A stretch of DNA of 64,000 nucleotides from an uncultured Candidatus Saccharibacteria bacterium (lineage in GTDB: Bacteria > Patescibacteriota > Minisyncoccia > UBA6257 > 2-01-FULL-56-20). The notes under the pieces were generated by a model. That model was not told the origin of the DNA. It worked only from the letters and a program-made list of their open reading frames with translations, and did not search any database. The DNA lies in assembly GCA_964416665.1 (NCBI GenBank), contig CAYQFA010000001.1:40082-104081 (forward strand), written 5' to 3'. This document shows, piece after piece, positions 33,753 through 57,579 of the stretch. Numbering within the stretch: the stretch's first letter is position 1; each line of letters starts with the position of its first letter. The position numbers and the translations under genes are program-made.

Positions 33753-33791
33753 CTTTTGCGGCCTGCTGCGAAGACGCAACGGCCGCAAAAG
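33753..33791 (+). repeat. conserved-loop hairpin family member A
   Basis: Stem CTTTTGCGGCC/GGCCGCAAAAG (11 bp); 17-nt loop TGCTGCGAAGACGCAAC. Confidence 0.6.
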
Positions 33792-33837
33792 CATGTGCCC
33801 TTGCTATTTAGCCCAACTTGATGTATCATAATCCATA

Positions 33838-34104
33838 ATGCTTACTAAAAGAGTGAAATCCCGCATCGTCGGGGAACATAAAACGAGCGAAAAAGACACG
33901 GGTTCCGCCCAGGTTCAGGTTGCCATGCTTTCGCGTCAGGTTGGCGAACTCGCCACCCATCTCAAGAAAAATCCGAAGGATAACCATTCTCGTCGCGGGT
34001 TGTTAAAGATGGTCTCCAAGCGCAGGAAACTTCTGTCGTATCTGAAGAAACACGAGCCAGCCTCGTATGAAAAGTTGATCAAGAAGCTTGAACTTAAAAA
34101 ATAA
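33838..34104 (+). CDS. rpsO: 30S ribosomal protein S15
   Basis: 88 aa: MLTKRVKSRIVGEHKTSEKDTGSAQVQVAMLSRQVGELATHLKKNPKDNHSRRGLLKMV…. Confidence 0.9.
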   Translation: MLTKRVKSRIVGEHKTSEKDTGSAQVQVAMLSRQVGELATHLKKNPKDNHSRRGLLKMVSKRRKLLSYLKKHEPASYEKLIKKLELKK

Positions 34105-34775
34105 TGAAGCAAGGAACAAATTATTCCAACCAGCGAGTTGGGATTTTTGTTGATGTGTCGAATCTGTACCACTCAGCAAAAAATCTTTATCAGGGGCGCG
34201 TGAATTACGCCGAGCTCATCAAGCATCTTGTGGGCGGGCGCCAGCTCATTCGCGCCGTGGCGTACGTGGTGCGGAGCGAGGGCGTGGAACCGCAACAGCC
34301 GCGCGGGCATATGCGCATGGCCGAGAAGGACCAGGCTGCGGCAGTCTCGATCGTTCCGGCATCCGCGAACGCGAATGGATCGAATGGTACCGGCGACGGC
34401 GCGAACGGGGGTATGTCCTCCGAAGCGAGTTTCTTTGAAGCGCTCGAGAAAGCCGGACTTGAGCTTCGCATGAAGGACCTTCAGATCTACGCGGGCGGGC
34501 TTAAGAAGGGCGATTGGGATGTCGGCCTCACTGTGGACGTCATCCGCATGATGCCGTTCCTCGATGTCATTATTCTGGTCACTGGCGACGGCGATTACAT
34601 TCCGCTGGTCAATTATGTGAAATGGGCAGGAGGGCGAGTGGTCGAGATCGCCTCGTTTCGAAGGAGCGCATCGTCAAAACTGGTGGAGGCGGCGGACGAG
34701 TTCATAAACATAGAGGCTCTTCCGCGGGCGATCATGAAGTCGCGGTATGTCGCAAGGACGAAAAGGCCGCAGTAA
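34104..34775 (+). CDS. NYN-domain (LabA-like) predicted ribonuclease with an internal low-complexity insert
   Basis: VGIFVDVSNLYH…VILVTGDGDYIPL NYN/PIN-like motifs. The ATG overlaps the rpsO stop by 1 nt (TAATG). Confidence 0.6.
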   Translation: MKQGTNYSNQRVGIFVDVSNLYHSAKNLYQGRVNYAELIKHLVGGRQLIRAVAYVVRSEGVEPQQPRGHMRMAEKDQAAAVSIVPASANANGSNGTGDGANGGMSSEASFFEALEKAGLELRMKDLQIYAGGLKKGDWDVGLTVDVIRMMPFLDVIILVTGDGDYIPLVNYVKWAGGRVVEIASFRRSASSKLVEAADEFINIEALPRAIMKSRYVARTKRPQ

Positions 34776-34843
34776 ACGTACAGCAAGTAGCAGTCGGTAA
34801 AAGATCAAAAATAAATTAACTAACCGAAGCGCGATAAAGGGGA

Positions 34844-34919
34844 TGTCATTCCGAGCTTTGCGCGAGATCCGTCAAAACGGCATGGGCCGCAGCGATCTTT
34901 CTCAAAGCTCAGGATGACA
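34844..34919 (+). promoter_or_regulatory. long imperfect hairpin in the pnp 5' leader (candidate RNase III / autoregulatory site)
   Basis: Arms TGTCATTCCGAGCTTTGCGCGAGATC and GATCTTTCTCAAAGCTCAGGATGACA (26 nt, a few mismatches) around a 24-nt loop, 35 nt upstream of the pnp ATG. Confidence 0.4.
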
Positions 34920-34954
34920 AGACTCCCTCCGGTTCGCGGTTCAAAATTAAAAAT

Positions 34955-37060
34955 ATGTTGCAAAAAAAGGAATTTTCCACGGAAATTGCGGGTAAAAAAT
35001 TAACAATCGAGATTTCGGCGCTCGCGGAGCAGGCCAACGCCGCGGTGATCGCGAAGTACGGCGAGACGGTGATATTGGCGACCGCTGTCATGGGTCGCAA
35101 AGATATCGAGCTTGATTATCTTCCTCTTAAGGTTGATTACGAAGAGAGGTTCTACGCCGCGGGCAAGATACTCGGCAGCCGTTATGTCCGTCGCGAAGGC
35201 CGCGCTTCCGAAGAGGCGATACTGGCCGGTCGGCTCATCGACCGCACCATCCGCCCGCTTTTCGATAACCGCATGCGCCGTGATATCCAAGTGGTCGTCA
35301 CTGTGTTGCAGATCGACGAGGAAAACACGCCGGAGTTTGTCGGTTTGCTCGGCGTTTCCACGGCGTTGTTCATCTCCGACATTCCATGGGGCGGTCCGGT
35401 CGCCGGCGTCCACGTCGCGCAGTTCGCGGACGGCTTCAAGGTCAATGCGGACAAATCATCGATCGCGAAAAATGAACACGTCTTCGAATCGTTCGTCTCG
35501 GGTTCCCGTGATCGCATCAATATGATCGAGCTTGGCGGACTGGATGCACAGGAAAAAGACGTCGTTGAAGGATTCAAGCTTGCGCAGCAGGAGATCAACA
35601 AACTCATTGCGTTCCAGGAAACGATACAAAAGGAGATCGGCAAAGCGAAGGCCGAGGTTGCACTCGTTGAGCCCGATCCGGAACTCAAGGCGGAAGTGAC
35701 GGCATTCTTGGCAGACAAGTTGGAGGATGCGATATACAAGCCGACGAAAGTGGAGCACACGACCGCGGTGGGCGCGTTGAACCATGAACTCAACCTTCAC
35801 CTTAAGGAAAAATTCGCGGAAACGAAAGAAAAGATAAACTGGAAGGCGGTGGAATCGCTTTTTGAGGAGATGGTGAATGACCTCGTTCATAAGAATGTTT
35901 TGGAAAAGGAAAGGCGTCCTGACGGCAGGAAGCTTGACGAGGTTCGCGCACTTGATGGTCAGGTGGGCCTGTTCTCCCGCGTCCACGGTTCCGCGTTCTT
36001 CTCACGCGGGAACACGCAGGCGCTCGCGATAACGACGCTTGGCGTTCCGGGTTCCGAGCAGCTCATTGAAAGTATGGAAACCAATGAGAAGCGTCGCTTC
36101 CTTTTGCACTATAATTTCCCGCCGTATTCCGTCGGCGAGGTCGGCAACTTCCGCGGGCCGGGCCGTCGCGAGATCGGTCATGGTAATCTGGCGCGCAAAT
36201 CGCTCGAGCGGTTGCTCCCTTCGAAAGAGGAGTTTCCGTACACCATCCGCGTGGTTTCTGAGATCATGTCATCGAACGGATCGTCTTCGCAGGCGACCGT
36301 GTGCGCCTCCGCGCTCTCGATGATGGACGCTGGCGTACCGCTCAAAAAGCCGGCAGCAGGCATTGCGATGGGGCTCATGATGAGCGATGTCGACCACTAC
36401 AAAGTGCTGACCGATATCCAGGGACCGGAAGATCATCATGGCGACATGGACCTTAAGGTTGCAGGGACCGATGATGGCGTAACCGGCATGCAGATGGACG
36501 TCAAAGTGGACGGGCTCACGATCGAAATTCTGGCCGCGGCATTCGAACAGGCAAAGCAGGCGCGTATCCACATCTTGAAGACTGTGAAGGCGATCCTCCC
36601 GATGCATCGCGATAAACTTTCGCCGTTCGTTCCGACCATCCGTCAGTTCAAGATCGATCCGTCAAAGATCGGTACGGTCATTGGCCCTGGCGGCAAGATG
36701 ATCAACGGTCTTATCGCGAAATACGAATTGGCTGGCATTGACATTGAAGAGGACGGCGGCGTTTTCGTTTCCGGTACCGACCTTGCAAAAGTCGAGGCGG
36801 CGGTTGCGGAGATCATGGGAATGACCAAGGAATATAAAGTTGGCGAGATCGTAGAGGGCACTATCGTGAAGATCCTTGAATTCGGCGCGATCGTCGATAT
36901 CGGCGGTGGCCGTGATGGCATGATCCACGTTTCGGAGCTTCGGCAGGGGTTCGTGAAGAACGTCGAAGACGTGGTGAAACTTGGCGATTTCGTCCGCGCG
37001 AAGATCATCAAGGCCGAAGACGGCAAGATAGGCCTTTCGTTGAAACAGATGGAAGGGTAA
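34955..37060 (+). CDS. pnp: polyribonucleotide nucleotidyltransferase (PNPase)
   Basis: 701 aa with two RNase PH domains, a KH domain and an S1 domain (…GPGGKMINGL…, …VEGTIVKILEFGAIVDIGGGRDGMIHVSEL…). Confidence 0.9.
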   Translation: MLQKKEFSTEIAGKKLTIEISALAEQANAAVIAKYGETVILATAVMGRKDIELDYLPLKVDYEERFYAAGKILGSRYVRREGRASEEAILAGRLIDRTIRPLFDNRMRRDIQVVVTVLQIDEENTPEFVGLLGVSTALFISDIPWGGPVAGVHVAQFADGFKVNADKSSIAKNEHVFESFVSGSRDRINMIELGGLDAQEKDVVEGFKLAQQEINKLIAFQETIQKEIGKAKAEVALVEPDPELKAEVTAFLADKLEDAIYKPTKVEHTTAVGALNHELNLHLKEKFAETKEKINWKAVESLFEEMVNDLVHKNVLEKERRPDGRKLDEVRALDGQVGLFSRVHGSAFFSRGNTQALAITTLGVPGSEQLIESMETNEKRRFLLHYNFPPYSVGEVGNFRGPGRREIGHGNLARKSLERLLPSKEEFPYTIRVVSEIMSSNGSSSQATVCASALSMMDAGVPLKKPAAGIAMGLMMSDVDHYKVLTDIQGPEDHHGDMDLKVAGTDDGVTGMQMDVKVDGLTIEILAAAFEQAKQARIHILKTVKAILPMHRDKLSPFVPTIRQFKIDPSKIGTVIGPGGKMINGLIAKYELAGIDIEEDGGVFVSGTDLAKVEAAVAEIMGMTKEYKVGEIVEGTIVKILEFGAIVDIGGGRDGMIHVSELRQGFVKNVEDVVKLGDFVRAKIIKAEDGKIGLSLKQMEG

Positions 37061-37066
37061 AACAAC

Positions 37067-37139
37067 AAAACAACCCCACCCTCTTTTGAAAACCTGCTGT
37101 GCGGACACAACGGTTTTCAAAAGAGGGTGGGGTTGTTTT
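37067..37139 (+). terminator. pnp terminator; also conserved-loop hairpin family member B
   Basis: Perfect 28-bp stem AAAACAACCCCACCCTCTTTTGAAAACC/GGTTTTCAAAAGAGGGTGGGGTTGTTTT around loop TGCTGTGCGGACACAAC, followed by TTTTGTTTCTCTT. Confidence 0.65.
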
Positions 37140-37165
37140 GTTTCTCTTGTGCTAGAATAAAACAA

Positions 37166-37528
37166 ATGGAAAATACTTCTAACTTTCAAGGTAGTATTCC
37201 CGGCGCACCGCCACCTCCATCGGAAGTGAAAGTCCGCACCATGCGCAGCGATTTGGAATCTATGACGAGAAGCGGCGGTGGTGCACCGCGCTTCGAGAAC
37301 GTGGCGGTCACGGGGCTGACCATGCAGGACGGAGCGCCACAGGCGGCAGAAACCGCCGGGGGACAAAGCGGTGCCGTTGGCACATCATTGCGATCGCTTT
37401 TGGGACCTGTTTTGGTCATAATCGTCGCCCTCGTCGCCCTCGCAGTCGTAGGGTATTTTGCATACACCGTTTTTAATTCTTCCGCGAGCCAAACGCCGGC
37501 ACCCGCGGCAACTCCAACGACCCCGTAG
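37166..37528 (+). CDS. hypothetical protein with a C-terminal TM helix (Pro/Ala-rich)
   Basis: ATG at 37166 (MENTSNFQ…). The upstream GTG of the track ORF lies inside the terminator stem. No homology recognisable. Confidence 0.3.
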   Translation: MENTSNFQGSIPGAPPPPSEVKVRTMRSDLESMTRSGGGAPRFENVAVTGLTMQDGAPQAAETAGGQSGAVGTSLRSLLGPVLVIIVALVALAVVGYFAYTVFNSSASQTPAPAATPTTP

Positions 37529-37563
37529 CCGGTCATCGTCCGCGGCTGCGCTTTATGTGCGCT

Positions 37564-38619
37564 TTACTCTCCTTCCGGTCCAGCGACCTCTCCGACGGGA
37601 GTTTCCGCGATCTTCTTTTTTATCGCGCTGAGCAGCTTCTTATCTTCTTTGAGCTTTGTCCGCGCGTTTTCAAATCCAACACCAAGCCGCTCGCCTTCGA
37701 AGCTGAAACTTGATCCCGCTTTTTTTACCACGCCGCGGTTGACCGCTGCATTCAAAACATCGCCCTCATAGGAGATGCCTTCGTTGAAAAGAATATCGAA
37801 CTCCGCAAATTTGAACGGCGCGGCGACTTTATTTTTTACCACCTTCGCTTTCACGCGGTTACCGACGACATTCTCACCCCTCTTCACCTGCGCAATTCTG
37901 CGGATATCGATACGCACCGAGGCAGCAAAAGGGAGCGCCCGACCACCCGGGGTCGTTTCCGGATTACCGAACATGATGCCGATCTTCATGCGAAGCTGGT
38001 TGATAAAAATGACGAGCGTCTGGCTGGTCGCCGCGATCGCTGTGAGTTTGCGGAGCGCCTGACCCATCATGCGTGCCTGGCGTCCCACATGCTGCTCTCC
38101 CATTTCACCCTCGAGTTCTGCGCGCGGTACGAGCGCTGCGACGGAGTCCACAACGACCACCGATATCATGCCGGAGCGCACCAAACTTTCGAGAATATTC
38201 AAAGCTTCCTCGCCGCTGTCCGGCTGGGAAATAAGCAGCTCGTTCACGTTCACGCCCAGTTTCGCCGCGTATTGAGGATCCATGGCATGTTCCGCGTCAA
38301 TGAATGCCGCCGTTCCGCCCTGTTTTTGGGCCTGCGCGACGACGTTCAGGGCGAGGGTGGTCTTACCGCTGGATTCGGGGCCGAATATCTCGACGACGCG
38401 CCCGCGTGGAAGTCCGCCAACGCCGAGGGCAAGGTCGAGAGAGAAGGATCCGGTGGAGACTACGGAAACGTCCACTTTACTTACTTCGCCAAGACGCATG
38501 ATTGATCCTGCGCCAAATTTTTCCTGCATGGACGAAAGGAGATTCTCAAAATCCTTCGGGCTGGTTTGTTTGGCGGCTTTTGAAGGCGCCGCTCCTTTAT
38601 GCTTTTTTATAGGTGTCAT
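37564..38619 (-). CDS. recA: recombinase RecA
   Basis: Walker [13 protein letters not shown]; …[10 protein letters not shown]…; …VVVDSVAAL…. An extended -10 TGGTATAAT sits on the minus strand (38626-38634), 6 nt upstream of the ATG. Confidence 0.9.
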
Positions 38620-38653
38620 GGGTTCATTATACCAGAAGACACATTAAAAAAAT

Positions 38654-39415
38654 CTAAAGTCGGGTCGAGGTGGCGGTGCCGGTGGTAGTGCTTGCGCCAG
38701 GCCCGGAAACCGGGGTTGATGTGGCAGTTGTGGAATTATTGACGCTTCCCGTTGCGTTCGTGTTTGTATTGACGATCTGTTCGATAACATCCGTCTCGCC
38801 GCCGAGGAATTTTTTAGCGGCTATTTTGAACGAATTCAAGCCGCTTCCGAGCAACACCGGCTCCTGCCACGACCCATCCGAAGCGACGGCTATCTCCTGG
38901 CTATCGCTCGCTTCCTGATTATCGCCTACCAAATAAAGCGAATCGGCGTTTGTGACGGTGCCTTCAAGAACGAACGTGCTTGAAGAGGTGGTGTACGGAC
39001 TTTGATCGGGGGACGTGATGGCGATCGATGGTTTTCCTAAAATGCGCGGAAGTTGAAACGCGAGATAGATCAAAACGATCACCGCCACGCCGATCGCCCA
39101 TAAATATTTTGGCGGCGATTGTTTGATGAAACGATTGCGCGGAAGCGTGTCGAGCTCGCCGGAATTTTTGACGACGCCTTCCTTTTTCAATTTCATCCAC
39201 CACGCTTCGCCGTCGAAATCGAGGGCGTTGCCGAGATGGACGAGGTACCCATGGAAATACGGCGCCGACGGCATGCTTTCGTAATCCCCGCGCAGCAGGC
39301 TTTCAATATGTGTCGGGGCAATGCCTGTTATATCGGAGAGCTTTTTAAGGGAAATGCCTCGTTCTTTTATCTTTTCCGCAAAGAATTGCTCGAATGGTGT
39401 GTCGTTTGGGCTCAT
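38654..39415 (-). CDS. RodZ-like HTH (XRE) domain membrane protein
   Basis: N-terminal HTH (ISLKKLSDITGIAPTHIESLL), a single TM helix, and a Ser/Thr-rich C-terminus. -10 TAGAAT 8 nt upstream of the ATG. Confidence 0.55.
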   Translation of the reverse strand: MSPNDTPFEQFFAEKIKERGISLKKLSDITGIAPTHIESLLRGDYESMPSAPYFHGYLVHLGNALDFDGEAWWMKLKKEGVVKNSGELDTLPRNRFIKQSPPKYLWAIGVAVIVLIYLAFQLPRILGKPSIAITSPDQSPYTTSSSTFVLEGTVTNADSLYLVGDNQEASDSQEIAVASDGSWQEPVLLGSGLNSFKIAAKKFLGGETDVIEQIVNTNTNATGSVNNSTTATSTPVSGPGASTTTGTATSTRL

Positions 39416-39453
39416 ATGTCCTGATTCTAAGGCGCATCGCGAAATTAGTCCAC

Positions 39454-41604: not shown

Positions 41605-41656
41605 GATGCAATCATTTTACCACCACTTTTCCGCCCACGCGATAGTGTCGCTCGGG

Positions 41657-50129: not shown

Positions 50130-50138
50130 AATAGAGAT

Positions 50139-50945
50139 ATGAAAAAAATCACCAAATTGGTACTGCCCATTGCCGGGCTCGGCAAACGCCTGCTTCCTCT
50201 TACTGCGATAACTCCAAAGAATCTCATTCCCGTGAATGGCAAACCCATTTTGGAGTATGTCCTTGAAGAGGCGGTTGCGAGCAAGATAAAAGAGGTGATA
50301 CTTATCATCAATCCCAAACACCTTAAGGATTTCAAGGCGTATCTTGCAAAGAACAAGAAGCGGTTTCCCACGCTTACGTTCCATATCCGCATCCAGGAAA
50401 CGCCGGGCGGAAATGGCCATGCGATCGCTCAGGCTTATGATCTCGTGAAAGGCGAGCCTTTCGCGGTACGTTTCTGTGATGATGTGCTTTCGGGCGAGCC
50501 GGCTGCACTTCCGGCGCTCCTTGAGATCTTCAAAAAATATCAGGCGTCGGTGGTGCTTCTGGAAGCGGTTCCCAAGGCTGATGTCTCGCGGTTCGGGGTC
50601 GTTGGGTTTGAAAAGGGGAAGGCGGCAACGGCCTCCTTCGCTGGCGGGACCATTTATAAAATAAACAAGATAATTGAAAAGCCAAAAACGAAAGACGCAC
50701 CTTCGAATTTGATCATCGTCGGCGGTTATGTGCTTACCCCGGACATACTCCGCAATCTAAAAATGGTTGCCGATACTTTGCCGGTCGTTGCCGACGATGC
50801 GTTGCCGCTCGCGGTGGCGCTGCAGATCGAATTGATCGTTAAGGGCAGAATTTATGGCTGGGAATTTCCCGGCAAGCGCCTTGATTGCGGCACGTTGGAA
50901 AAGTTGCAGCAAACGGAAGAATACCTGAGAAACAACAAGCAGTAA
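50139..50945 (+). CDS. galU: UTP-glucose-1-phosphate uridylyltransferase-like nucleotidyltransferase
   Basis: N-terminus KLVLPIAGLGKRLLPLTAITPKNLIPV and a GalU-like body. Confidence 0.65.
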   Translation: MKKITKLVLPIAGLGKRLLPLTAITPKNLIPVNGKPILEYVLEEAVASKIKEVILIINPKHLKDFKAYLAKNKKRFPTLTFHIRIQETPGGNGHAIAQAYDLVKGEPFAVRFCDDVLSGEPAALPALLEIFKKYQASVVLLEAVPKADVSRFGVVGFEKGKAATASFAGGTIYKINKIIEKPKTKDAPSNLIIVGGYVLTPDILRNLKMVADTLPVVADDALPLAVALQIELIVKGRIYGWEFPGKRLDCGTLEKLQQTEEYLRNNKQ

Positions 50946-51026
50946 TCCGGCAAAACAAAACAGTCCCTTTCCGGCTCGTGATGAGAATAATTCGCCGGAA
51001 AGGGACTGTTTTGTTTTGCCGGATTA
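50941..51026 (+). repeat. perfect 34-bp palindrome IR1 with an asymmetric 18-nt centre
   Basis: GTAATCCGGCAAAACAAAACAGTCCCTTTCCGGC - TCGTGATGAGAATAATTC - GCCGGAAAGGGACTGTTTTGTTTTGCCGGATTAC. The first arm contains the galU stop codon. Confidence 0.7.
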
Positions 51027-51089
51027 CTGCTTTATTTTCTTTAGGTTCTTCCGTTTGCTGCAACTTTATCTTTCCGGCAAAGCCATACG

Positions 51090-51179
51090 GCAATTGCAGG
51101 ATAGCAAGGAGAATGGCTTTCCGGCGAATTATTCTCATCACGAGCCGGAAAGCCATTCTCCTTGCTATCCTGCAATTGC
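51090..51179 (+). repeat. perfect 36-bp palindrome IR2 with the same 36-nt core as IR1 in opposite orientation
   Basis: GCAATTGCAGGATAGCAAGGAGAATGGCTTTCCGGC - GAATTATTCTCATCACGA - GCCGGAAAGCCATTCTCCTTGCTATCCTGCAATTGC. The centre is the reverse complement of the IR1 centre. Confidence 0.7.
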
Positions 51180-51181
51180 TA

Positions 51182-51190
51182 TGGTATAAT
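51182..51190 (+). promoter_or_regulatory. extended -10 element (TGGTATAAT) 6 nt upstream of the regulator ATG
   Basis: TGGTATAAT followed by CCGGCA-ATG. It is identical to the box upstream of recA. Confidence 0.4.
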
Positions 51191-51196
51191 CCGGCA

Positions 51197-51862: not shown

Positions 51863-51916
51863 GGGCAGTTTCGGCGGTAACTTTTTATTTTCCGCCGCGT
51901 TGTATATAATGATTCA

Positions 51917-52026
51917 AGGTTCGGTGTGAGGCTGAACCGCCAGTGTTTTCCATTGATCGCAACCGCCTGTTTTTCGTAGTGGTATTGCGCTCATAATTCA
52001 GCCTCGCCCAAAAGCGAGTTTTTTCT
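51917..52026 (+). ncRNA. candidate ~110-nt small RNA or structured 5' leader upstream of the giant surface-protein gene
   Basis: TATATAAT -10 box at 51903-51910 (TATAAT hexamer 51905-51910). Internal hairpin GGTTCGGTGTGAGGCTGAACC. Intrinsic terminator CTCGC-CCAAAA-GCGAG followed by TTTTTTC at 52001-52026. Confidence 0.3.
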
Positions 52027-52205
52027 TTATTTAGCTATAACCCCGTTTTCTGCGCACTCTCCGTTTGCAACCCTCACTTGCGAATTGAGCGATGCGCCGG
52101 CAACGGCGCCCAGAATAAAATTGGTATACGGAAAGGTCGACGGCTAAAGAATTCGGAAAAGAATTCTTAGGTCGATAACTTAAAAAAATCGAAATAAAAA
52201 TTAAA

Positions 52206-55200
52206 ATGAGCATAAATAAAAAATTGGTTTCAGCAGTTCTTACTGCCACCACGATTTCGTGGGCGGTCGGTATCGCTGCGTTGCCTCTCGCTCAAGCACA
52301 GACCACGACGAGCCTTCAGTCTCAGATCGCAGCCTTGCTTGCGCAGATCCAACAGCTTCAGGGCCAATTGAATTCTTCGGGAACGCCGGCAATGGCGACG
52401 ACCTCGTATGCCTTCACCAAAAACCTCACAGTTGGTTCGAAGGGTGCGGACGTCACAGCGCTCCAGCAGATTTTGATCAATGGCGGATACTTGACAGCGG
52501 TCTCAGCTCCGACCGGATACTTCGGGTCAGCGACCCAGAAGGCTTTGGCGGCGTTCCAGGCTGCGAAGGGTATCACCCCCTCAGCAGGTTATTTCGGTCC
52601 TAAGACCATGGCGTATCTTGCGTCCAATGGTACGACGACCACAACGACGACGACAACCACGACAGGTGGTACGACGACCACAACGACGACAGGAACCGGT
52701 ACGACAGTTGTCGCTCCGGCAACTGGCATGTCGGTCAGCTTGGCTTCCACCAATCCGGCCGCCGGCTCTTTGATCTCAAGCGCAAGCGCGGGATCATCGC
52801 GCGTCCCGGTTTTGGCAGTGAGCTTCACTGCAGGAACCGCGGGTCCGGTAACCCTCTCTAGTGTGAGCTTCCAGAAGACTGGAGTTCTTTCTGATAGCGC
52901 AGTCGCTGGCGCCTACCTTACCCAGAACGGTCAGGTTCTCGCCCAGTACAACTCGCTTAACTCGGGCTTGTTGAGCTTCTCCGGTTTGAACTTGTCGATT
53001 CCGGCAGGTCAGACGGTAACTCTCACGCTCGCGATCGACGTTTCTGCAAATCTTTCCGCGGGTAACACCACTGGCTTCGCTTTAGAGAGCGCGTCGGCGA
53101 TTTCCGCGTTTGATAGCAATAACGCCGCGGTCACTCCGGCCGGTTCGTTCCCGTTGACGGGCAGTACCTTCACGGTGACGAGCGTAACGAATCCTTCCCT
53201 TGCATACGTGACGATCGCCTCGTCCTCAATTGGAACGACGGTGACGGCTGGTACGCAGGGAAACATCGTTGGTTCTTGGAACTTTACGGTGAACAACAGC
53301 CCTGTCTACCTTCAGAATCTTAACTTCCACGTTATTGGTTCCGCGAATGTCACGAACATTCAGAACGTGAAGTTGATGGTGAACGGTACGCAGGTTGGTC
53401 AGACATTGTCTTCGGTCCCGGCATCGGGCTTGGCCGACTTCAGTGCAACGGGTTCAGCGATCAAGTTGAACACGGGTTCGAACAATGTTCAGGTTGTGGC
53501 TGATGTCACAGGATCCCCGAGCGACTACTTCCAGTTCGAGATCTTGAACGGATATGACGTCTTGGCAATCGACAGCCAGTACAACGTCCCCATCTCGGTA
53601 ACGAACAATGGTGGCGTCGGTACGCAGGTTGCGATCCAGGTCGGTCAGATCACGATCAACCAGGATGCAAATACCCCGACGGGTAACATTGCAAAGGGCC
53701 AGTCCGCGGTAGTGTTGGCTAAGTACGACATCTACGCAGCGGGCGAGCCGGTCAAGGTGAAATTCCTCGACTTCAACATCGTATTGGGTGGTGCGAGCGG
53801 TCAGGCTCTCAGCAATGAGATCCAGAACGTCGCCATCACGGATGATGCGGGTAACCAGGTGGGCACCAGCATCAACCAGCCTCCGTCCAGCAATGTTTGT
53901 CAGGCTACGAACGCCGTTGCATCGTATAACACGGTCAGCGACACGTACTCCGACTGCTTTGGTACGCCGTCTTCGCCGATCAATTACATTGTTCCGGCGA
54001 ACACGACCCGCATCCTTAGCTTGAAGGCTGACATCCAGACTGGCGCGAGCTTCAATACCATCACTGCGAACTTGTCGGGTGATACCGGCAACTTGCAGGG
54101 TATGACGTCAAGCCAGATCGGTAACACCGCTGGTGCTACCGGTGTCTCCTTGACACTCGTTTCTTCGAGCTTGTCGGTATCTCAGAACAACGCTTTGGGA
54201 ACCCAGAGCGTCTCTGCTGGTACGACGAACCTCAAGATCGGTTCATATGCGTTCAGCGCTTCTTCGGCTGAAGGCGTAAATGTGAACACGGTCACCGTCA
54301 AACTCACCCCGGACAGCACCTTGTCTGCTTTCCAGAATCTCAAACTTTTTGTGAATGGAACGCAGTTTGGTACGACCCAGGGTGTGTTGAGCGGTGAGAC
54401 GAACTATGCGTTCTCTGGTACGGCGTTCAATGTTCCGGCCGGTCAGACCGTGAATGTTGACGTGTATGCCGACACCTTGTCCGCTGCAACGGGTACCTAC
54501 ACCCCTGCGACGAGCTTGGTTGGCTACTCGGGTACTGGCGCGACATCGTTCACTTCGGTGAACATTCCTGCCAACACCACGTACACTGGCCAGACGGTGA
54601 ACTTCAGCGGTCAGCCCGCCATCACGATTGCTGCAGACTCGAGCAATCCTCCGGCTGGTATCATCGTTCAGAACACCTCGGGCAATACGCTTGCGGTCTT
54701 CCGCTTCACGGAAACCTCGAACGTTGAGAACGTGAAAGTCACGCAGTTGAATGTCTTGGACAAAGTCCAGACGACCTCGCTTCTCGGAAATGGCCAGTCG
54801 AAGACCTTGGCCGCGTTCAGCAATGTCAGCTTGTGGAATGGTTCACAGGAACTCGGCACTGCCGCTTCGCCGGTCTGGGATGCTTCGAATGGCGGTTACG
54901 ACTACAACTTCAACAGCTTCACCAATGCGTTAGTGGTTCCGCAGGGCAATTCGGTCTCGCTCACCCTTAAGGGCGATGCAGGATCGTACACCAACGGTTC
55001 ACTCTCCGATAACACCACCTCGACCTTCGAGATCGTGCAAACGGGCGCTGGCAGCAACTATGTTGCTGCGACAGCGGCATCAAGCACCCTTACGGTCAAT
55101 ATGCCGTCATTGCTTGCTGCGGGTAACTACTCGTATTACGTGACTGTCAACGGAATAACGTCTCCGGCTCAGACCTTTACGGCTGCTGGCGTTTCGTCAA

Positions 55201-56036
55201 CTACAGATGCGACGACGTTGGCAAGTGACATCGTAACCACACTGACGGGGAACTTGTCTGCTTTCGGTCTTACCGGAGCGACGATTTCTTCCAGTGGTAA
55301 TGTTGTTACCATCGTTTCTACGCACACCGCAAGTTTGGGCGCTTCGGCTGCCCTCTGGGGTGCATCGACTGTTTCGATCGCGGCCGTTAACAACGCCGGT
55401 GCCGCTGGAAGCGGTACCGCAACCACGCAGAACGTGATTGCACGCGGTGCGACGTCGAACAAGACTGCCAATGTGGCGCTCTCAAATGCGACGGGTAACC
55501 CCCAGACCACTTTGAGGACGTTGCTCGGTGTAGCGGCGACCCCTGTGACCACCTTGCCTCCGGCAAGCTTCTCGCAGATCGGTTCGCTTACCTTCACCGC
55601 GAACAGTTCTGGTGATGCGGAGCTCAATAACTTGACGCTCACGTTCAACACCACGAGCACGGCGTTCATGAACACCGTAGCCTTGCATGACCCGAGCGGT
55701 AATGACATCTACACCGTCGACCACTTTGCGACCTCCACGGTTGCGACCTCCACGACCACTGCCACAGGCACAATCACGTGGGTGTTCGCTACATCAACCA
55801 ATCCGCTTGATGTGACCGCCGGCAGTTCGTACACCTTGTCGATCTGGGGCAATTTGGCGACGATCCCGACTGTCGCAAGTCAGGGTCTGTCCCTCACTGC
55901 AACGATTGTCAACAATACCGACTTTGGCTATCTTGATGGCTCGAGTGGTACTCCGGCATTGATCAACTTGACGACGAGTCAGGCAAATACCTTGACCCCT
56001 GTAAATCTACAGTCGGGTGCGGGCTTGCCTCTCTAG
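52206..56036 (+). CDS. giant secreted cell-surface protein: signal peptide, PG_binding_1 domain, poly-Thr linker, about 1100 aa of Thr/Ser/Asn/Gly-rich beta-repeat region
   Basis: N-terminal signal peptide; peptidoglycan-binding domain GSKGADVTALQQILINGGYL…GYFGSATQKALAAFQAAKGI; TTTTTTTTTTTGGTTTTTTTGTGTT linker; degenerate internal repeats (GQTVTLTLAIDVSANLSAGNT… / GQTVNVDVYADTLSAATGT…). Confidence 0.8.
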   Translation: MSINKKLVSAVLTATTISWAVGIAALPLAQAQTTTSLQSQIAALLAQIQQLQGQLNSSGTPAMATTSYAFTKNLTVGSKGADVTALQQILINGGYLTAVSAPTGYFGSATQKALAAFQAAKGITPSAGYFGPKTMAYLASNGTTTTTTTTTTTGGTTTTTTTGTGTTVVAPATGMSVSLASTNPAAGSLISSASAGSSRVPVLAVSFTAGTAGPVTLSSVSFQKTGVLSDSAVAGAYLTQNGQVLAQYNSLNSGLLSFSGLNLSIPAGQTVTLTLAIDVSANLSAGNTTGFALESASAISAFDSNNAAVTPAGSFPLTGSTFTVTSVTNPSLAYVTIASSSIGTTVTAGTQGNIVGSWNFTVNNSPVYLQNLNFHVIGSANVTNIQNVKLMVNGTQVGQTLSSVPASGLADFSATGSAIKLNTGSNNVQVVADVTGSPSDYFQFEILNGYDVLAIDSQYNVPISVTNNGGVGTQVAIQVGQITINQDANTPTGNIAKGQSAVVLAKYDIYAAGEPVKVKFLDFNIVLGGASGQALSNEIQNVAITDDAGNQVGTSINQPPSSNVCQATNAVASYNTVSDTYSDCFGTPSSPINYIVPANTTRILSLKADIQTGASFNTITANLSGDTGNLQGMTSSQIGNTAGATGVSLTLVSSSLSVSQNNALGTQSVSAGTTNLKIGSYAFSASSAEGVNVNTVTVKLTPDSTLSAFQNLKLFVNGTQFGTTQGVLSGETNYAFSGTAFNVPAGQTVNVDVYADTLSAATGTYTPATSLVGYSGTGATSFTSVNIPANTTYTGQTVNFSGQPAITIAADSSNPPAGIIVQNTSGNTLAVFRFTETSNVENVKVTQLNVLDKVQTTSLLGNGQSKTLAAFSNVSLWNGSQELGTAASPVWDASNGGYDYNFNSFTNALVVPQGNSVSLTLKGDAGSYTNGSLSDNTTSTFEIVQTGAGSNYVAATAASSTLTVNMPSLLAAGNYSYYVTVNGITSPAQTFTAAGVSSTTDATTLASDIVTTLTGNLSAFGLTGATISSSGNVVTIVSTHTASLGASAALWGASTVSIAAVNNAGAAGSGTATTQNVIARGATSNKTANVALSNATGNPQTTLRTLLGVAATPVTTLPPASFSQIGSLTFTANSSGDAELNNLTLTFNTTSTAFMNTVALHDPSGNDIYTVDHFATSTVATSTTTATGTITWVFATSTNPLDVTAGSSYTLSIWGNLATIPTVASQGLSLTATIVNNTDFGYLDGSSGTPALINLTTSQANTLTPVNLQSGAGLPL

Positions 56037-56083
56037 TCTTGCGATCAATACCTTCGCGCGTCGCTTGTGACCTCGCGTGATAG

Positions 56084-56119
56084 AAAACTCCCCGGCGAAA
56101 GCCGGGGAGTTTTTGTTTG
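56084..56119 (+). terminator. intrinsic terminator of the giant surface-protein gene
   Basis: AAAACTCCCCGGC-GAAA-GCCGGGGAGTTTT followed by TGTTTG. Confidence 0.7.
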
Positions 56120-56132
56120 CCGCCCCCTTGTG

Positions 56133-56159
56133 TTGATTTTCCCCTGATTTTGCTATAAT
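56133..56159 (+). promoter_or_regulatory. promoter of the HU gene with extended -10
   Basis: TTGATT, 15 nt, TGCTATAAT (TG at 56151-56152, TATAAT at 56154-56159). Confidence 0.4.
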
Positions 56160-56171
56160 AATAAGGAACGA

Positions 56172-56483
56172 ATGGGCAAAGGTCGGAAAAAGCATCAACG
56201 AAAAATTATGAATAAAAAAGGATTAATCGAAGCGGTGATGAAGGCGACGGGTATCGAGACGAAGGCGGCTTCGGAACGGGCCGTCGATGCAGTGTTCGAT
56301 ACCATCGTGAAAACGATGAGTCGCGGCGAAGAAGTGGCGATCGCAGGATTCGGCACGTTCCGCGTGGCAAAGCGCGCAGCACGCGAGGGCCGCAACCCGG
56401 CGACCGGAGAGAAGATCCAGATCAAAGCTTCCATCAAACCGAAGTTTCGCGCTGGAAAGCTCCTCAAAGAAGCTGTTTTGTAA
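56172..56483 (+). CDS. hup: DNA-binding protein HU
   Basis: MNKKGLIEAVMKATGIETKAASERAVDAVFDTIVKTMSRGEEVAIAGFGTFRVAKRAAREGRNPATGEKIQIKAS…. An ATG at 56172 with a good SD (AAGGA) would add a basic 12-aa N-terminal extension. The canonical start is at 56208. Confidence 0.8.
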   Translation: MGKGRKKHQRKIMNKKGLIEAVMKATGIETKAASERAVDAVFDTIVKTMSRGEEVAIAGFGTFRVAKRAAREGRNPATGEKIQIKASIKPKFRAGKLLKEAVL

Positions 56484-56514
56484 CCATTGGAAAAGGATCC
56501 TTTTTCTAATACCA

Positions 56515-56540
56515 ATCCCGCCACCCGGCGGGATTTTGGT
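56515..56540 (+). terminator. intrinsic terminator after hup
   Basis: AATCCCGCC-ACCC-GGCGGGATT followed by TTGGTTTG. Confidence 0.6.
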
Positions 56541-56566
56541 TTGTGATCTGTGGTACAATAAAGGCA

Positions 56567-57034
56567 ATGGCAAAATTCGAGATCAAGTGGGACGCTCCGG
56601 AGTATGAACATCGTGAAAAGGATGCTTCGTGGTACTGGGCATCCATCATCATCGCCGCGGCCATCATCGTGTTCGCGGTATGGCAAAAGAATTATCTCTT
56701 CGGCATCTTCATCGTCATCGCGGAAGTGCTTTTCATCCTGTGGGGAAGCCGTCCGCCGCGCGTCCTCAATTTCGTGCTGACCGATGAGGAGCTTTCCATC
56801 CACGAGCAAAAGATACATTCGCTCAAGGAGTTTGAAAGCTGGAGCGTGAACAAGAACGATGCGACGTGGGCCGATCTCCATTTTTATTTTCGCGCGCGGT
56901 TGAAGACGCCGCTCCGGGTGATCGTTCCGATCGCGCGTCTTGATGAGGTTCGCTCGGATCTGAGGCCGGTGCTTCGGGAGATCGAGCACGAGGTGTCTCT
57001 TATTGATTCCATTGAAAAATTCCTCGGGTTCTAG
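56567..57034 (+). CDS. hypothetical 2-TM membrane protein
   Basis: ATG at 56567 (MAKFEIKWDAPEYEH…), two central hydrophobic helices, no known motifs. Confidence 0.35.
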   Translation: MAKFEIKWDAPEYEHREKDASWYWASIIIAAAIIVFAVWQKNYLFGIFIVIAEVLFILWGSRPPRVLNFVLTDEELSIHEQKIHSLKEFESWSVNKNDATWADLHFYFRARLKTPLRVIVPIARLDEVRSDLRPVLREIEHEVSLIDSIEKFLGF

Positions 57035-57042
57035 TATCGTTG

Positions 57043-57123
57043 AGCAGGAGATTAGGTTGTGCCATTTTATGACCTGCTGCGCAGACGCAACGGTCATAAA
57101 ATGGCACGACCTAATCTCCTGCT
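57043..57123 (+). repeat. conserved-loop hairpin family member C
   Basis: 32-bp stem (one G-U pair) AGCAGGAGATTAGGTTGTGCCATTTTATGACC/GGTCATAAAATGGCACGACCTAATCTCCTGCT; loop TGCTGCGCAGACGCAAC. Confidence 0.65.
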
Positions 57124-57273
57124 TCTCGTCTTTGTAAGAGCGGGGAGCGTGGGGTAAGGAGAACCCCTTACCTCACACGACGAGCCCTCGTCGTTCAACG
57201 GATAGGACGCAAGATTGCGGATCTTGTAATCGAAGTTCGATTCTTCGCGGGGGCACAAAACAGAAAGACAAAA

Positions 57274-57326
57274 CCCTCTTCTTTTCGACCGAATCGCGCG
57301 GACGCTAAAGGTCGAAAAGAAGATGG
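57274..57326 (+). repeat. divergent hairpin family member E
   Basis: Stem CCCTCTTCTTTTCGACC/GGTCGAAAAGAAGATGG (one mismatch); loop GAATCGCGCGGACGCTAAA retains the apical GCG-CGGA-CGC mini-helix. Confidence 0.45.
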
Positions 57327-57348
57327 CATTACTTGCTCTGTCCGTCAG

Positions 57349-57376
57349 TTGAAAATGGCCAGCGATAGGCTATAAT
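57349..57376 (+). promoter_or_regulatory. promoter for tRNA-Gly
   Basis: TTGAAA (57349-57354), 16 nt, TATAAT (57371-57376), about 35 nt upstream of the mature tRNA 5' end. Confidence 0.5.
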
Positions 57377-57410
57377 AGGAACTAGTTTTCTGCGCCTTGG
57401 GCGCAATGCC

Positions 57411-57482
57411 GCGGGTATCGTATAGCGGCTATTATGTAACCTTGCCAAGGTTAAGATACGGGTTCGACTCCCGTTACCCGCT
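57411..57482 (+). tRNA. tRNA-Gly(GCC); CCA not encoded
   Basis: Acceptor stem GCGGGTA/TACCCGC, anticodon loop TTGCCAA (anticodon GCC), T arm ACGGG-TTCGACT-CCCGT. Confidence 0.85.
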
Positions 57483-57484
57483 CA

Positions 57485-57579
57485 CAGACAGAACAAGCCA
57501 GAACAGAATACTCTTTTTCGACCTGCTGTGATTACACAACGGTCGAAAAAGAGTATTCTGTTCTGGCTTGTTTTGTCTG
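57485..57579 (+). repeat. conserved-loop hairpin family member D (39-bp stem), on the tRNA-Gly 3' trailer
   Basis: Arms CAGACAGAACAAGCCAGAACAGAATACTCTTTTTCGACC and GGTCGAAAAAGAGTATTCTGTTCTGGCTTGTTTTGTCTG. Loop TGCTGTGATTACACAAC. Starts 3 nt after the tRNA 3' end and is followed by a T-rich tract. Confidence 0.65.

What the first reader, a model, noticed from the sequence alone, without database searches (positions are those of the whole stretch)
33753..57579. Family of very long + strand hairpins with a conserved 17-nt loop and covarying apical mini-helix
Four elements (A 33753-33791, B 37067-37139, C 57043-57123, D 57485-57579) share an identical top architecture. A fifth, divergent copy is E (57274-57326). 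The shared top is …ACC/GCC - TGCT - G(C/T)G - NNNN - C(G/A)C - AAC - GGT/GGC…. That is an asymmetric internal loop (TGCT / AAC) closing a 3-bp helix whose two strands covary (GCG/CGC in A, C, E; GTG/CAC in B, D), capped by a variable tetraloop (AAGA, CGGA, CAGA, ATTA). The supporting stems are unrelated in sequence but perfectly or near-perfectly paired over 11-39 bp. All copies have the same loop polarity on the + strand and sit in 3' positions of + strand genes (trxB, pnp, a membrane-protein gene, tRNA-Gly). B and D are followed by T-tracts. Same-orientation bias plus covariation argues for a transcribed RNA motif, for example a terminator with a protein-recognition loop or an RNase processing/stability determinant. 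A DNA-level REP-like element seems less likely; no RAYT or IS200-like transposase is present in the window. A partial relic of the loop (CCTGCGCAGATGCGCAG, next to AACGGTC) lies at 19030-19062 between a GT2 gene and hddA.
Basis: seen in the sequence. Interest (0 to 1): 0.78.

Follow-up and report, generated by a model that had tools for sequence, protein, structure and literature searches.

The report
Repeat-capped giant terminator palindromes in CPR bacterium
A tiny-genome (CPR/Minisyncoccota) bacterium ends many genes and tRNAs with very long, perfectly paired DNA palindromes, each built from its own flanking sequence and capped by one of several conserved ~40-nt repeat modules; the reported motif is one such cap, and this architecture appears to be undescribed.

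Summary
Four exact + strand copies of TGCTGYGNNNNCRCAAC sit at the tips of 29-39-bp hairpins, against 0.01 expected by chance. The same motif caps 35 more hairpins in related peat and bog-lake metagenome contigs. The "17-nt loop" is actually a near-palindrome: a bulged T, a C·A mismatch, a 4-6-bp mini-helix that covaries, and a tetraloop. About 11 bp of inner stem (CTTTTnnnACC) also belongs to the repeat, so the repeated unit is a REP-like palindrome of about 40 nt. Element E belongs to a sister family. At least four other cap families occur, three of them in this window.

The outer arms behave as DNA palindromes, not RNA helices:
- Pairing is 98.8% Watson-Crick with no excess of G·U pairs.
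- Arms are inverted copies of adjacent coding ends or promoters.
- Arms diverge 14-34% between relatives, yet both arms change together.
- Caps of different families replace each other at orthologous sites.

The hairpins abut stop codons and tRNA 3' ends. I read them as terminator-position palindromes that grow and stay perfect through replication template switching, each capped by a selected repeat module. The orientation bias is weak once orthologous copies are collapsed. The RNA-recognition reading is not excluded. This is a new variant of REP-type repeats.

The parts
33735..33809 (+). Hairpin A. The F1 cap module is 33753-33791 and its core is 33764-33780 (TGCTGCGAAGACGCAAC). A 7x7 internal loop separates the module from 12-bp outer arms. 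The right arm holds the TTGCTA -35 box of the rpsO promoter.
   Evidence: (57.3 bits)
37064..37142 (+). Hairpin B. F1 cap (core 37095-37111) on 31-bp perfect arms. It starts 3 nt after the pnp stop codon. The outer arm resembles a C-rich stem plus T-tract terminator.
   Evidence: (64.2 bits)
57043..57123 (+). Hairpin C. F1 cap (core 57075-57091) on 32-bp arms with one U·G pair. It starts 8 nt after the stop of a 155/163-aa gene of unknown function. F1 hairpins occupy the same site in L147, L153 and L141.
   Evidence: (65.7 bits)
57485..57579 (+). Hairpin D. F1 cap (core 57524-57540) on 39-bp arms with one G·U pair. It starts 1 nt after tRNA-Gly(GCC).
   Evidence: (69.3 bits)
57274..57326 (+). 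Hairpin E. It has a 19-nt cap from the sister family F5 (GAATCGCGCGGACGCTAAA, the reverse complement of TTTAGCGTCCGCGCGAYYC). Its inner stem cttttcgacc is like that of F1. It lies 20 nt after tRNA-Arg(GCG).
33555..33696 (+). F3 hairpin. It has 43-bp perfect arms. The left arm includes the last 14 nt of trxB with its stop codon. The apex is a 56-nt structured element with three helices, and the same apex family occurs in six other loci.
50900..51067 (+). F2 hairpin 1. The cap is TCGTGATGAGAATAATTC (50976-50993). The arms are 39 bp perfect (50937-51032) and extend to about 75 nt with mismatches. The left arm is the last ~45 nt of the NTP-transferase coding sequence, and the right arm is its inverted copy.
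   Evidence: (-118 kcal/mol)
51090..51179 (-). F2 hairpin 2. It has the same 18-nt cap in reverse orientation (51126-51143) on 36-bp perfect arms. The right arm carries the -35 box of a TTGCTA-N17-TATAAT promoter for the HTH_DeoR gene. The orthologous hairpin in L153 carries an F1 cap instead.
58478..58539 (.). Cap-less long palindrome with 26-bp perfect arms and a unique 10-nt loop. It fills the gap between the convergent EamA and glmS genes. It shows that long perfect arms occur without a cap module.

Best explanation
What F1 is. F1 is one of at least five families of REP-like mini-palindromes about 40 nt long. Its form is inner stem CTTTTnnnACC, then an asymmetric core (T-bulge, C·A mismatch, GYG/CRC helix, tetraloop), then GGTnnnAAAAG. 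These modules cap long locus-specific DNA palindromes at the 3' ends of genes and tRNAs in a clade of Minisyncoccota (CPR) bacteria.

Proposed mechanism.
(a) A cap module is present at, or copied into, the tip of a hairpin next to a gene end. How it gets there is inferred, not shown.
(b) The arms are built and lengthened by replication template switching, which writes an inverted copy of the adjacent flank (coding 3' end or promoter) onto the other side. The comparative pattern supports this.
(c) The same process removes any new arm mismatch far faster than point mutation creates one. The two arms therefore drift in sequence together and stay Watson-Crick perfect. The pattern supports this too.
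(d) The arms stop growing where selection stops them, at or a few codons into the coding sequence, or at the tRNA 3' end.
(e) The resulting hairpins serve as transcription terminators or 3'-end barriers that are largely independent of orientation. This rests on position only and has not been shown.
(f) The ~17-20-nt asymmetric core lies inside the zone that fold-back copying cannot reach. It is held constant by selection, most likely as a folded recognition structure for an unidentified protein, on single-stranded DNA or on RNA.
For: Family and unit. There are 42 covariance-model hits above 48 bits in 308 kb of clade DNA. The conserved inner stems fall into subfamilies that are shared between non-orthologous loci.

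Arms behave as DNA palindromes. Of 39 F1 hairpins, 29 are perfect. Among 1154 arm pairs there are 14 mismatches: 6 G·T-type, 7 A·C-type and 1 transversion.

Arms are copied from flanks.
- The trxB stop region lies inside a 43-bp arm, and ~45 nt of NTP-transferase coding sequence is mirrored downstream of that gene.
- The left arm of hairpin A mirrors the rpsO -35 region, which is present without any hairpin in L155.
- At the tRNA-Gly 3' end, three genomes show an F1 hairpin, a different 14-bp hairpin and no hairpin, all around the same T-rich trailer.

Concerted arm evolution. Orthologous arms are only 58-86% identical between genomes and include indels, yet each is 97-100% self-complementary.

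Cap turnover at orthologous sites. The pnp 3' end carries F1 in the window, L155 and L129, an F2-like cap in L126, and no hairpin in L124. The NTP-transferase site carries F2/F2 in the window and F5/F1 in L153.

Loop sizes. Hairpins with 17-20-nt loops number 61 of 97 and nearly all belong to recurrent families. Cap-less hairpins have unique loops of 3-10 nt.

Position. Nineteen of 37 hairpins start within -11 to +14 nt of the stop codon of a co-oriented ORF. Others directly follow tRNA genes: Gly, Arg, Pro, Val, Ile and Lys. Six to eight fill the gap between convergent genes and overlap both stop codons.

Core under constraint. The 13 specified core positions are retained at orthologous sites while the arms turn over. 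An intact core goes with perfect arms: 27 of 33, against 1 of 7 for variant cores (p=0.0014).

Internal control. The pnp leader hairpin has conserved imperfect arms.

Literature. Template switching is documented to create, extend and homogenise inverted repeats (PMC8794818, PMC13100816, PMC5941160).
Against: - No transposase, HUH enzyme or other partner protein was found, so the way caps spread is unexplained.
- Copies within one genome all differ in inner stem and tetraloop, so there is no sign of recent transposition bursts.
- If template switching symmetrises arms, the strictly conserved bulge and mismatch need an extra assumption: selection, or a zone that copying cannot reach.
- U-tracts after the hairpins are inconsistent. 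The mean is 4.1 T in 10 nt, and the excess of downstream T over upstream A gives p=0.09. Termination is therefore not demonstrated.
- A raw sense-orientation excess (19:5) exists. Tandem hairpin pairs between co-directional genes are always + then - at three sites. A purely orientation-blind DNA model does not explain this polarity rule.
- The F1 metagenome sample was collected with a pattern that required TTTT and AAAA, which inflates the apparent conservation of the inner stem.
Confidence: 0.55

Rival explanations
1. RNA-level motif. The cap is a protein-recognition or RNase-processing and stability determinant at the tip of terminator hairpins. It works in the transcript of the upstream gene. 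The long stems are selected as double-stranded RNA.
For: - The core is conserved at orthologous sites and the mini-helix covaries.
- There is a raw sense bias of 19:5.
- Hairpins abut stop codons and tRNA 3' ends.
- A T-rich tract tends to follow on the sense side: 21 cases against 11.
- The F3 cap is a three-helix fold with 14 of 23 pairs showing compensatory changes.
- The genome encodes RNase Y, RNase J, PNPase and an NYN-domain nuclease.
Against: - The arms show no G·U enrichment and no strand asymmetry in their mismatches.
- The arms extend into coding sequence and promoters.
- Unrelated cap families are interchangeable at one site.
- Reversed copies upstream of promoters and behind opposite-strand genes keep intact cores and perfect arms.
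- The orientation bias falls to 13:7 (p=0.26) once orthologous copies are collapsed.
- The cap pairs better on the antisense strand.
- A genuine RNA hairpin nearby behaves differently.
Confidence: 0.2
2. Classical REP or MITE-type mobile DNA. The ~40-nt module is cut and pasted as a folded single-stranded DNA hairpin by a trans-acting HUH/Y1 (RAYT-like) or other transposase encoded elsewhere in the genome. It inserts preferentially into the exposed tips of existing hairpins.
For: - The unit is a REP-sized imperfect palindrome with a conserved extrahelical base and a mismatch. These are features typical of hairpins read by Y1 transposases and integron integrases (my own knowledge of IS608, REP and attC).
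- Caps are replaced at orthologous sites, and A looks like a nested insertion: the module sits inside a 7x7 internal loop.
- The elements have a narrow lineage distribution.
- Insertion sequences that target REP loops are known (IS1397; my own knowledge).
Against: - No Y1 or RAYT gene, or any transposase, is present in the window or in 536 kb of clade DNA. That test was weak, because the queries were recalled from memory.
- There is no GTAG or CGTC tag.
- There are no clear target-site duplications. The only candidate is a 3-nt CTC at one junction, which equally fits a slippage deletion.
- Copies within a genome are all different.
- Opposite polarities occur within 60 nt of each other, which argues against a simple rule tied to the lagging-strand template.
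Confidence: 0.15
3. The cap is a double-stranded DNA binding site for a dimeric protein, such as a nucleoid, segregation, uptake or regulatory factor. The palindromic context would be incidental.
For: The module is nearly two-fold symmetric, with the halves GCTGTG and GTTGTG and with TTTT and AAAA about 15 bp either side of the centre. Function that does not depend on orientation would fit the reversed copies.
Against: - Several unrelated cap sequences occupy the same sites.
- The variable tetraloop and covarying helix point to a folded strand rather than a duplex site.
- Copies are found only at hairpin tips at gene ends.
- The density, 4 per 64 kb, is far below that of uptake sequences (my own knowledge).
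Confidence: 0.05
4. The pattern is chance or an assembly artefact, for example fold-back chimeras.
For: The source is a metagenome assembly, and inverted repeats can arise as artefacts.
Against: - Expected matches by chance are 0.01, against 4 observed.
- Identical hairpins occur in independent assemblies from three samples.
- Orthologous hairpins occur in diverged genomes.
- The hairpins are precisely placed at gene ends.
Confidence: 0.01

Closest known systems
REP / BIME / REPIN elements (repetitive extragenic palindromes, mobilised by RAYT transposases)
   Same: Both are dispersed imperfect palindromes of 20-40 nt in extragenic DNA. Both lie mostly at 3' ends of genes and between convergent genes. 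Both show compensatory variation in the stem, sometimes occur as inverted doublets, and are thought to act as terminators or mRNA 3' stabilisers.
   Different: - F1 has no GTAG or CGTC tag, and no RAYT was found.
- The conserved part here is the tip of the hairpin, not the whole stem.
- Each copy is nested in 20-40 further bp of perfectly paired stem that is specific to its locus and copied from the flanks.
- Several unrelated cap families share the same architecture and replace one another.
Inverted repeats created by template-switch mutation, and quasipalindrome correction (PMC8794818, PMC13100816, PMC5941160)
   Same: Both involve inverted copies of adjacent sequence created in one step. 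In both, arms are homogenised and expanded, producing perfect stems without G·U intermediates.
   Different: The described cases are isolated events. Here the process appears to act systematically at gene ends across a genome. It is centred on a conserved repeat core, which template switching alone does not explain.
Intrinsic (Rho-independent) terminators, including bidirectional ones and uptake-sequence pairs in Neisseria and Haemophilus (PMC1852404)
   Same: Both are hairpins immediately downstream of stop codons and tRNAs. Both can have A-tract/T-tract symmetric outer stems, and single hairpins can be shared by convergent genes. In both, a repeated sequence is embedded in the terminator.
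   Different: - Stems here are 25-75 bp rather than 5-15 bp.
- The U-tract is inconsistent.
- The repeated sequence forms the tip rather than the stem.
- Termination is untested.
Integron attC sites and IS200/IS605 end hairpins (folded single-stranded DNA substrates)
   Same: Both are hairpins whose recognition depends on conserved extrahelical bases or mismatches rather than on stem sequence. attC sites also lie at the 3' ends of genes with a fixed polarity.
   Different: - There are no R/L boxes at the outer ends.
- No integrase or TnpA is linked.
- The host genes are housekeeping genes, not cassettes.
- Polarity is not fixed.
Selfish palindromic repeats of organelle genomes (Volvox, Lobosphaera; PMC2670323, PMC4524435) and yeast mitochondrial GC clusters
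   Same: Both are short hairpin-forming repeats that proliferate in intergenic DNA of small genomes without an obvious transposase.
   Different: Those repeats are conserved over their whole length, are not confined to hairpin tips, and are not embedded in flank-derived arms.

Membership tests
REP elements (RAYT-associated) | Dispersed extragenic imperfect palindrome of about 20-40 nt | tested here: met
   The conserved unit is ~39-45 nt. There are 42 strong hits in 308 kb, all intergenic or at gene ends.
REP elements (RAYT-associated) | Conserved GTAG or CGTC tetranucleotide at one end (PMC3733652) | tested here: not met
   In alignment A1 the unit ends in CTTTT and AAAAG, with no GTAG or CGTC at either end.
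REP elements (RAYT-associated) | A RAYT (Y1 HUH transposase) gene in the same genome | tested here: inconclusive
   None appears among the Pfam-annotated genes of window 332-59000. tblastn with remembered IS608 and IS200 TnpA sequences found nothing in 536 kb. The complete genome is not available.
MITE | Terminal inverted repeats with target-site duplication, and a related autonomous insertion sequence | tested here: inconclusive
   The only candidate duplication is a 3-nt CTC at the pnp site, which equally fits a slippage deletion in L124. No autonomous element was found, and viral scans gave only chance hits.
Intrinsic terminator | Hairpin directly downstream of a stop codon or RNA gene end | tested here: met
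   Nineteen of 37 start within -11 to +14 nt of the stop codon of a co-oriented ORF. Others follow tRNA genes at 0-7 nt.
Intrinsic terminator | GC-rich stem followed immediately by a U-tract | tested here: inconclusive
   The mean is 4.1 T in the 10 nt after the stem, against 3.4 A before it (p=0.09). Some copies, such as B, have the T-tract inside the outer arm.
Intrinsic terminator | Transcripts end at the element | not testable with these tools
   No transcript data are available.
Integron attC | RYYYAAC ... GTTRRRY boxes at the outer ends of the hairpin, cassette context and an IntI integrase | tested here: not met
   The outer arms are specific to each locus. The neighbouring genes are housekeeping genes (trxB, rpsO, pnp, tRNAs). 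No integrase lies near the window copies.
Any Rfam RNA family | A match at the gathering threshold | tested here: not met
   Only two tRNAs reach the gathering threshold. Lenient searches give generic miRNA-precursor hairpin models on both strands, all below threshold.
Template-switch-generated inverted repeat | One arm is ancestral local sequence, the other is its inverted copy, and the copy is absent from relatives | tested here: met
   This holds for the trxB and NTP-transferase coding ends, the rpsO promoter and the tRNA-Gly trailer.

The most novel reading that the evidence does not exclude
The caps would be recognition hairpins of an undescribed system specific to CPR bacteria. A protein would read the asymmetric tip (bulged T, C·A mismatch, mini-helix) on single-stranded DNA or nascent RNA. 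It would then either drive the building and perfecting of giant palindromes from flanking DNA, or define transcript and tRNA 3' ends in organisms with a reduced termination and repair toolkit. Under this reading, the several interchangeable cap families and the rule that tandem pairs are always + then - would reflect a real polar mechanism rather than drift.
Probability: 0.2. Interest if true: 0.85.

Novelty: new variant of a known kind. Interest (0 to 1): 0.62.

Why it matters
These bacteria are uncultured, have genomes of about 1 Mb, and their signals for ending transcription are essentially unknown. The finding matters in four ways.
- It points to a genome-wide architecture for gene ends: very long perfect palindromes capped by a small set of repeat modules.
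- It gives an unusually clear natural example of replication template switching building, extending and homogenising hairpins. Such a process could create terminators from scratch and overwrite intergenic DNA, even the last codons of genes.
- It provides markers, in the form of covariance models for the caps, that can be used to annotate transcription-unit ends in CPR metagenome bins.
- It defines a short, strongly constrained asymmetric hairpin tip that can be used as bait to find the protein that reads it.

Tried and rejected
1. The genome-contig scan with CCTGCTGYGNNNNCRCAACGG returned 120 loci, all chance matches in GC-rich coding DNA and none with flanking arms.
2. Viral-contig scans for the F1, F2 and F5 cores gave only chance matches without hairpins. 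The stricter F1 pattern found nothing. There is no phage link.
3. Rfam searches at gathering and at lenient thresholds found no known family.
4. tblastn with IS608 and IS200 TnpA sequences found nothing. The queries were recalled from memory, so this is a weak test.
5. The 'relic' at 19030-19062 was rejected as a family member.
6. E as a degenerate F1 copy was rejected. It belongs to the sister family F5.
7. I tested whether hairpin 51090-51179 ends a minus-strand gene, which would have explained its reversed cap. It does not: the next gene is on the + strand (HTH_DeoR) and the arm holds its promoter.
8. I tested orientation against replication strand using GC skew of the loci. Short loci confound this with gene orientation, so it was uninformative.
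9. I considered a K-turn or C-box reading of the F2 cap (GUGAUGA), uptake sequences, attC sites and recombinase core sites, judging from sequence and from my own knowledge. None fits the spacing or context.
10. Near-identical strains have no differences inside the hairpins, so no recent event was caught.
11. Literature searches found no description of such hairpins in CPR or Patescibacteria.

Full report
1. THE OBSERVATION

The motif TGCTGYGNNNNCRCAAC occurs exactly four times in the window, at 33764, 37095, 57075 and 57524, all on the + strand. Shuffled sequence gives 0.01 matches. Each match is the 17-nt spacer of a long inverted repeat. A is 33735-33809 with 29-nt arms, 25 paired, and an 11-bp perfect inner stem. 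B is 37064-37142 (31/31). C is 57043-57123 (31/32). D is 57485-57579 (38/39). Folding energies are -49 to -72 kcal/mol, with z-scores of -9.7 to -18.3. Independent assemblies from three samples are 99.96% identical to the window and carry the same hairpins, so these are not assembly artefacts.

2. THE ORGANISM

The closest PNPase relatives that carry a name (84% identity or less) are labelled Minisyncoccia or Candidatus Paceibacterota. These belong to the CPR/Patescibacteria group. The window is part of a 119.5-kb JGI metagenome contig with ordinary chromosomal genes: trxB, rpsO, an NYN-domain gene, pnp, recA, ftsK, clpB and glmS. It also encodes RNase Y and RNase J. No transposase is called anywhere between 332 and 59000.

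3. THE FAMILY BEYOND THE WINDOW

A first scan of reference genomes with the bare core returned only chance matches in GC-rich coding DNA. A stricter metagenome scan required TTTT and AAAA around the core. It found 26 contigs from peat and bog-lake samples, carrying 33 further F1 hairpins. A covariance model built from 37 distinct copies finds 42 hits above 48 bits in 308 kb of clade DNA. It finds exactly the four known copies in the window.

4. ANATOMY, REVISED

The 17 nt are not an open loop. They fold as a bulged U, a G-C pair, a C·A mismatch, a UGYG/CRCA helix and a tetraloop that almost always ends in A. On the opposite strand the mismatch becomes G·U and only one A is bulged. The middle pair of the mini-helix is U-A in 28 copies, C-G in 8, U-G in 1 and C-A in none (Fisher p=2e-7). 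Both helix types occur with the same tetraloops (CGGA and CAGA), which suggests more than one switch.

The ~11 bp next to the core (CTTTTnnnACC/GGTnnnAAAAG) are also conserved. They fall into subfamilies that non-orthologous loci share. The repeated unit is therefore an imperfect palindrome of about 40 nt, which is REP-sized. Only the outer 10-30 bp of each arm are specific to the locus.

5. OTHER CAP FAMILIES

E (57274-57326) scores no better with the F1 model than antisense shadows do. Its loop is the reverse complement of a separate recurrent 19-nt family, F5 (TTTAGCGTCCGCGCGAYYC), which is seen in L143, L147 and L153.

The window also holds two hairpins with an 18-nt cap, F2 (TCGTGATGAGAATAATTC). 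One is at 50976 and its exact reverse complement is at 51126. A third kind, at 33555-33696, has a 56-nt structured cap, F3. Six other loci share this cap. It forms three helices, and 14 of its 23 pairs show compensatory changes.

Relatives add F4 (GTCCCGGAGGGYGTCTT) and some caps seen only once. Of 97 long hairpins in 400 kb, 61 have loops of 17-20 nt, and nearly all of these belong to recurrent families. Cap-less hairpins have unique loops of 3-10 nt but can still have perfect arms of 15-27 bp. Long perfect arms and cap modules are therefore two separate phenomena.

The supposed relic at 19030-19062 is an ordinary small hairpin after a stop codon.

6. POSITION AND POLARITY

Nineteen of 37 F1 hairpins begin within -11 to +14 nt of the stop codon of a co-oriented ORF. 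Others begin 0-7 nt after tRNA genes. Six to eight exactly fill the gap between convergent genes and overlap both stop codons.

Relative to the abutting gene, 19 copies are sense and about 5 antisense (p=0.007). Many sense copies are orthologues of one another, however. After collapsing these and counting the reversed promoter-proximal copies, the ratio is 13 to 7 (p=0.26). T-richness on the sense side is a weak trend only.

Where two hairpins stand in tandem between co-directional genes, the first is + and the second is -. This holds at three sites and with mixed families: window F2/F2, L153 F5/F1, L147 and L153 F1/F5, and L141 F1/F1. The second hairpin is not behind a minus-strand gene. The next gene is on the + strand, and the right arm of the hairpin carries its -35 box (TTGCTA-N17-TATAAT). 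This polarity rule is unexplained.

7. THE ARMS BEHAVE AS DNA PALINDROMES

Of 39 distinct F1 hairpins, 29 are perfect. Among 1154 arm pairs there are 14 mismatches. Six would be G·U on the sense strand, seven would be G·U on the antisense strand, and one is a transversion. An RNA helix under selection would accumulate G·U pairs on one strand, and this does not happen here.

Arms run into functional sequence. The trxB hairpin includes the last 14 nt of the gene. The F2 hairpin mirrors about 45 nt of NTP-transferase coding sequence into the spacer. That coding sequence is conserved in L153, but the mirror copy is absent there. The right arm of A is the ancestral rpsO promoter region, which is present without a hairpin in L155. 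The left arm of A is its inverted copy.

After tRNA-Gly, three genomes share a T-rich trailer. Around it, one has built a 95-nt F1 hairpin, one has a different 14-bp hairpin, and one has nothing.

Orthologous arms are only 58-86% identical between genomes and include indels, yet each is 97-100% self-complementary. The two arms therefore evolve in concert.

The pnp leader hairpin (34844-34919) serves as an internal control for an RNA-level structure. Its imperfect arms, including a C·A mismatch and a U·G pair, are conserved in sequence across relatives, while its loop varies. That is the opposite pattern.

8. CAP TURNOVER

At the pnp 3' end the cap is F1 in the window, L155 and L129. In L129 it is degenerate, with decayed arms. 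The cap is F2-like in L126. In L124 the hairpin is missing, leaving only the left outer arm, with a CTC at both junctions in the window. The outer arm (aaacaaaa-g-cccc-ctc) is homologous in all five genomes.

At the NTP-transferase site the outer arms are homologous between the window and L153, but the caps are F2/F2 against F5/F1. After EamA, the window has a cap-less palindrome and L147 has an F1 hairpin with unrelated arms.

Copies with an intact core have perfect arms far more often than copies with a variant core (27 of 33 against 1 of 7, p=0.0014).

9. INTERPRETATION

The best reading combines two layers.

The first layer is arm growth. Replication template switching is documented to create, extend and homogenise inverted repeats (PMC8794818, PMC13100816, PMC5941160). 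It explains several features: arms made of local flank, arms that grow until selection stops them, perfect Watson-Crick pairing, concerted divergence, and occasional collapse by slippage.

The second layer is the cap. It is a REP-like repeat whose asymmetric core is under purifying selection. It lies in the ~17-20-nt central zone that fold-back copying cannot symmetrise. This may also explain why unrelated caps have the same size, although that point is inference.

Position makes the hairpins the likely transcription terminators or 3' barriers of these genomes. This has not been shown.

How caps spread is open. Candidates are transposition by an unseen enzyme, ectopic template switching through the shared inner stems, or conversion. 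What reads the core is also open.

10. COMPARISON WITH KNOWN SYSTEMS AND VERDICT

F1 meets the REP criteria of size, extragenic location and palindromy. It fails the GTAG/CGTC tag criterion and has no RAYT in the sequence available. It is not an attC site, not a known Rfam family, and has no phage link. I found no description of such hairpins in CPR bacteria.

I rate it a new variant of a known kind: REP-type palindromic repeats at terminators. Its distinctive architecture is a conserved tip on flank-derived perfect arms, with several interchangeable cap families.

Noticed in passing
window 34844-34919: There is an imperfect hairpin in the pnp leader (26-nt arms, 81% paired, with a C·A mismatch and a U·G pair retained). 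Its arm sequence is conserved in L124, L129, L207 and L209, while its loop varies in sequence and length. It resembles the RNase III-processed rpsO-pnp leader of E. coli (my own knowledge). It served as an RNA-level control.
   Followed up: partly
window 33598-33653; also L151 3954-4009, L135 ~5604-5664, L140 2464-2526, L152 464-526, L207 14995-15055, L209 ~12161-12225: A structured element of 56-63 nt (F3) sits at the tip of perfect 27-43-bp arms. It forms three helices, and 14 of its 23 pairs show compensatory changes. An internal sub-hairpin has a variable stem and a conserved C-UGCU/UACU-G loop. It is not in Rfam. It may be a structured RNA or a single-stranded DNA motif in its own right.
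   Followed up: partly
window 51157-51190 and 33801-33829: Two strong promoter-like sites, TTGCTA-N17-TATAAT and TTGCTA-N17-TATCAT, end 6-8 nt before the ATG of the HTH_DeoR gene and of rpsO. This suggests leaderless or near-leaderless mRNAs. In both cases the -35 box lies inside the right arm of a long hairpin. The motif (T/C)TGCTAT recurs in the arms of several other hairpins.
   Followed up: partly
window 50937-51179; L153 4578-4801 and 10890-11069; L147 2051-2226; L141 ~803-951: Where two capped hairpins lie in tandem between co-directional genes, their caps always have opposite polarity (+ then -), even when the two caps belong to different families. I have no explanation for this.
   Followed up: partly
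L129/L130 4590-8559; L207 7470-8390; L209 7879-8820: In three relatives an integrase lies directly upstream of rpsO; in L129/L130 the island also carries Phage_rep_O, plus a serine recombinase in L130. This is the same intergenic region where the window carries the F3 and F1 hairpins. In L126 the same gap holds a RelB/ParE pair and a Vgb-lyase-like gene. The region looks like a hotspot for insertions.
   Followed up: no
L126/L127 19735-20079: There is a gene with a bAvd domain (the accessory protein of diversity-generating retroelements), next to a 20-bp-arm hairpin at 19686-19730. This hints at a diversity-generating retroelement in a close relative.
   Followed up: no
window 34104-34775: An NYN-domain (predicted ribonuclease) gene is inserted between rpsO and pnp. 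It is conserved at that position in all relatives examined.
   Followed up: no
window 57124-57183: Between hairpin C and tRNA-Arg the window has only a 7-bp hairpin (ggtaagg...ccttacc). L147, L153 and L141 carry a full capped hairpin at that position. It may be the remnant of a collapsed palindrome.
   Followed up: no
L145 937-1519 / L155 5843-6425: Two nearly identical F1 hairpins in direct orientation flank the small conserved gene downstream of pnp. The window has only the first of them. This looks like a duplicated terminator hairpin.
   Followed up: no
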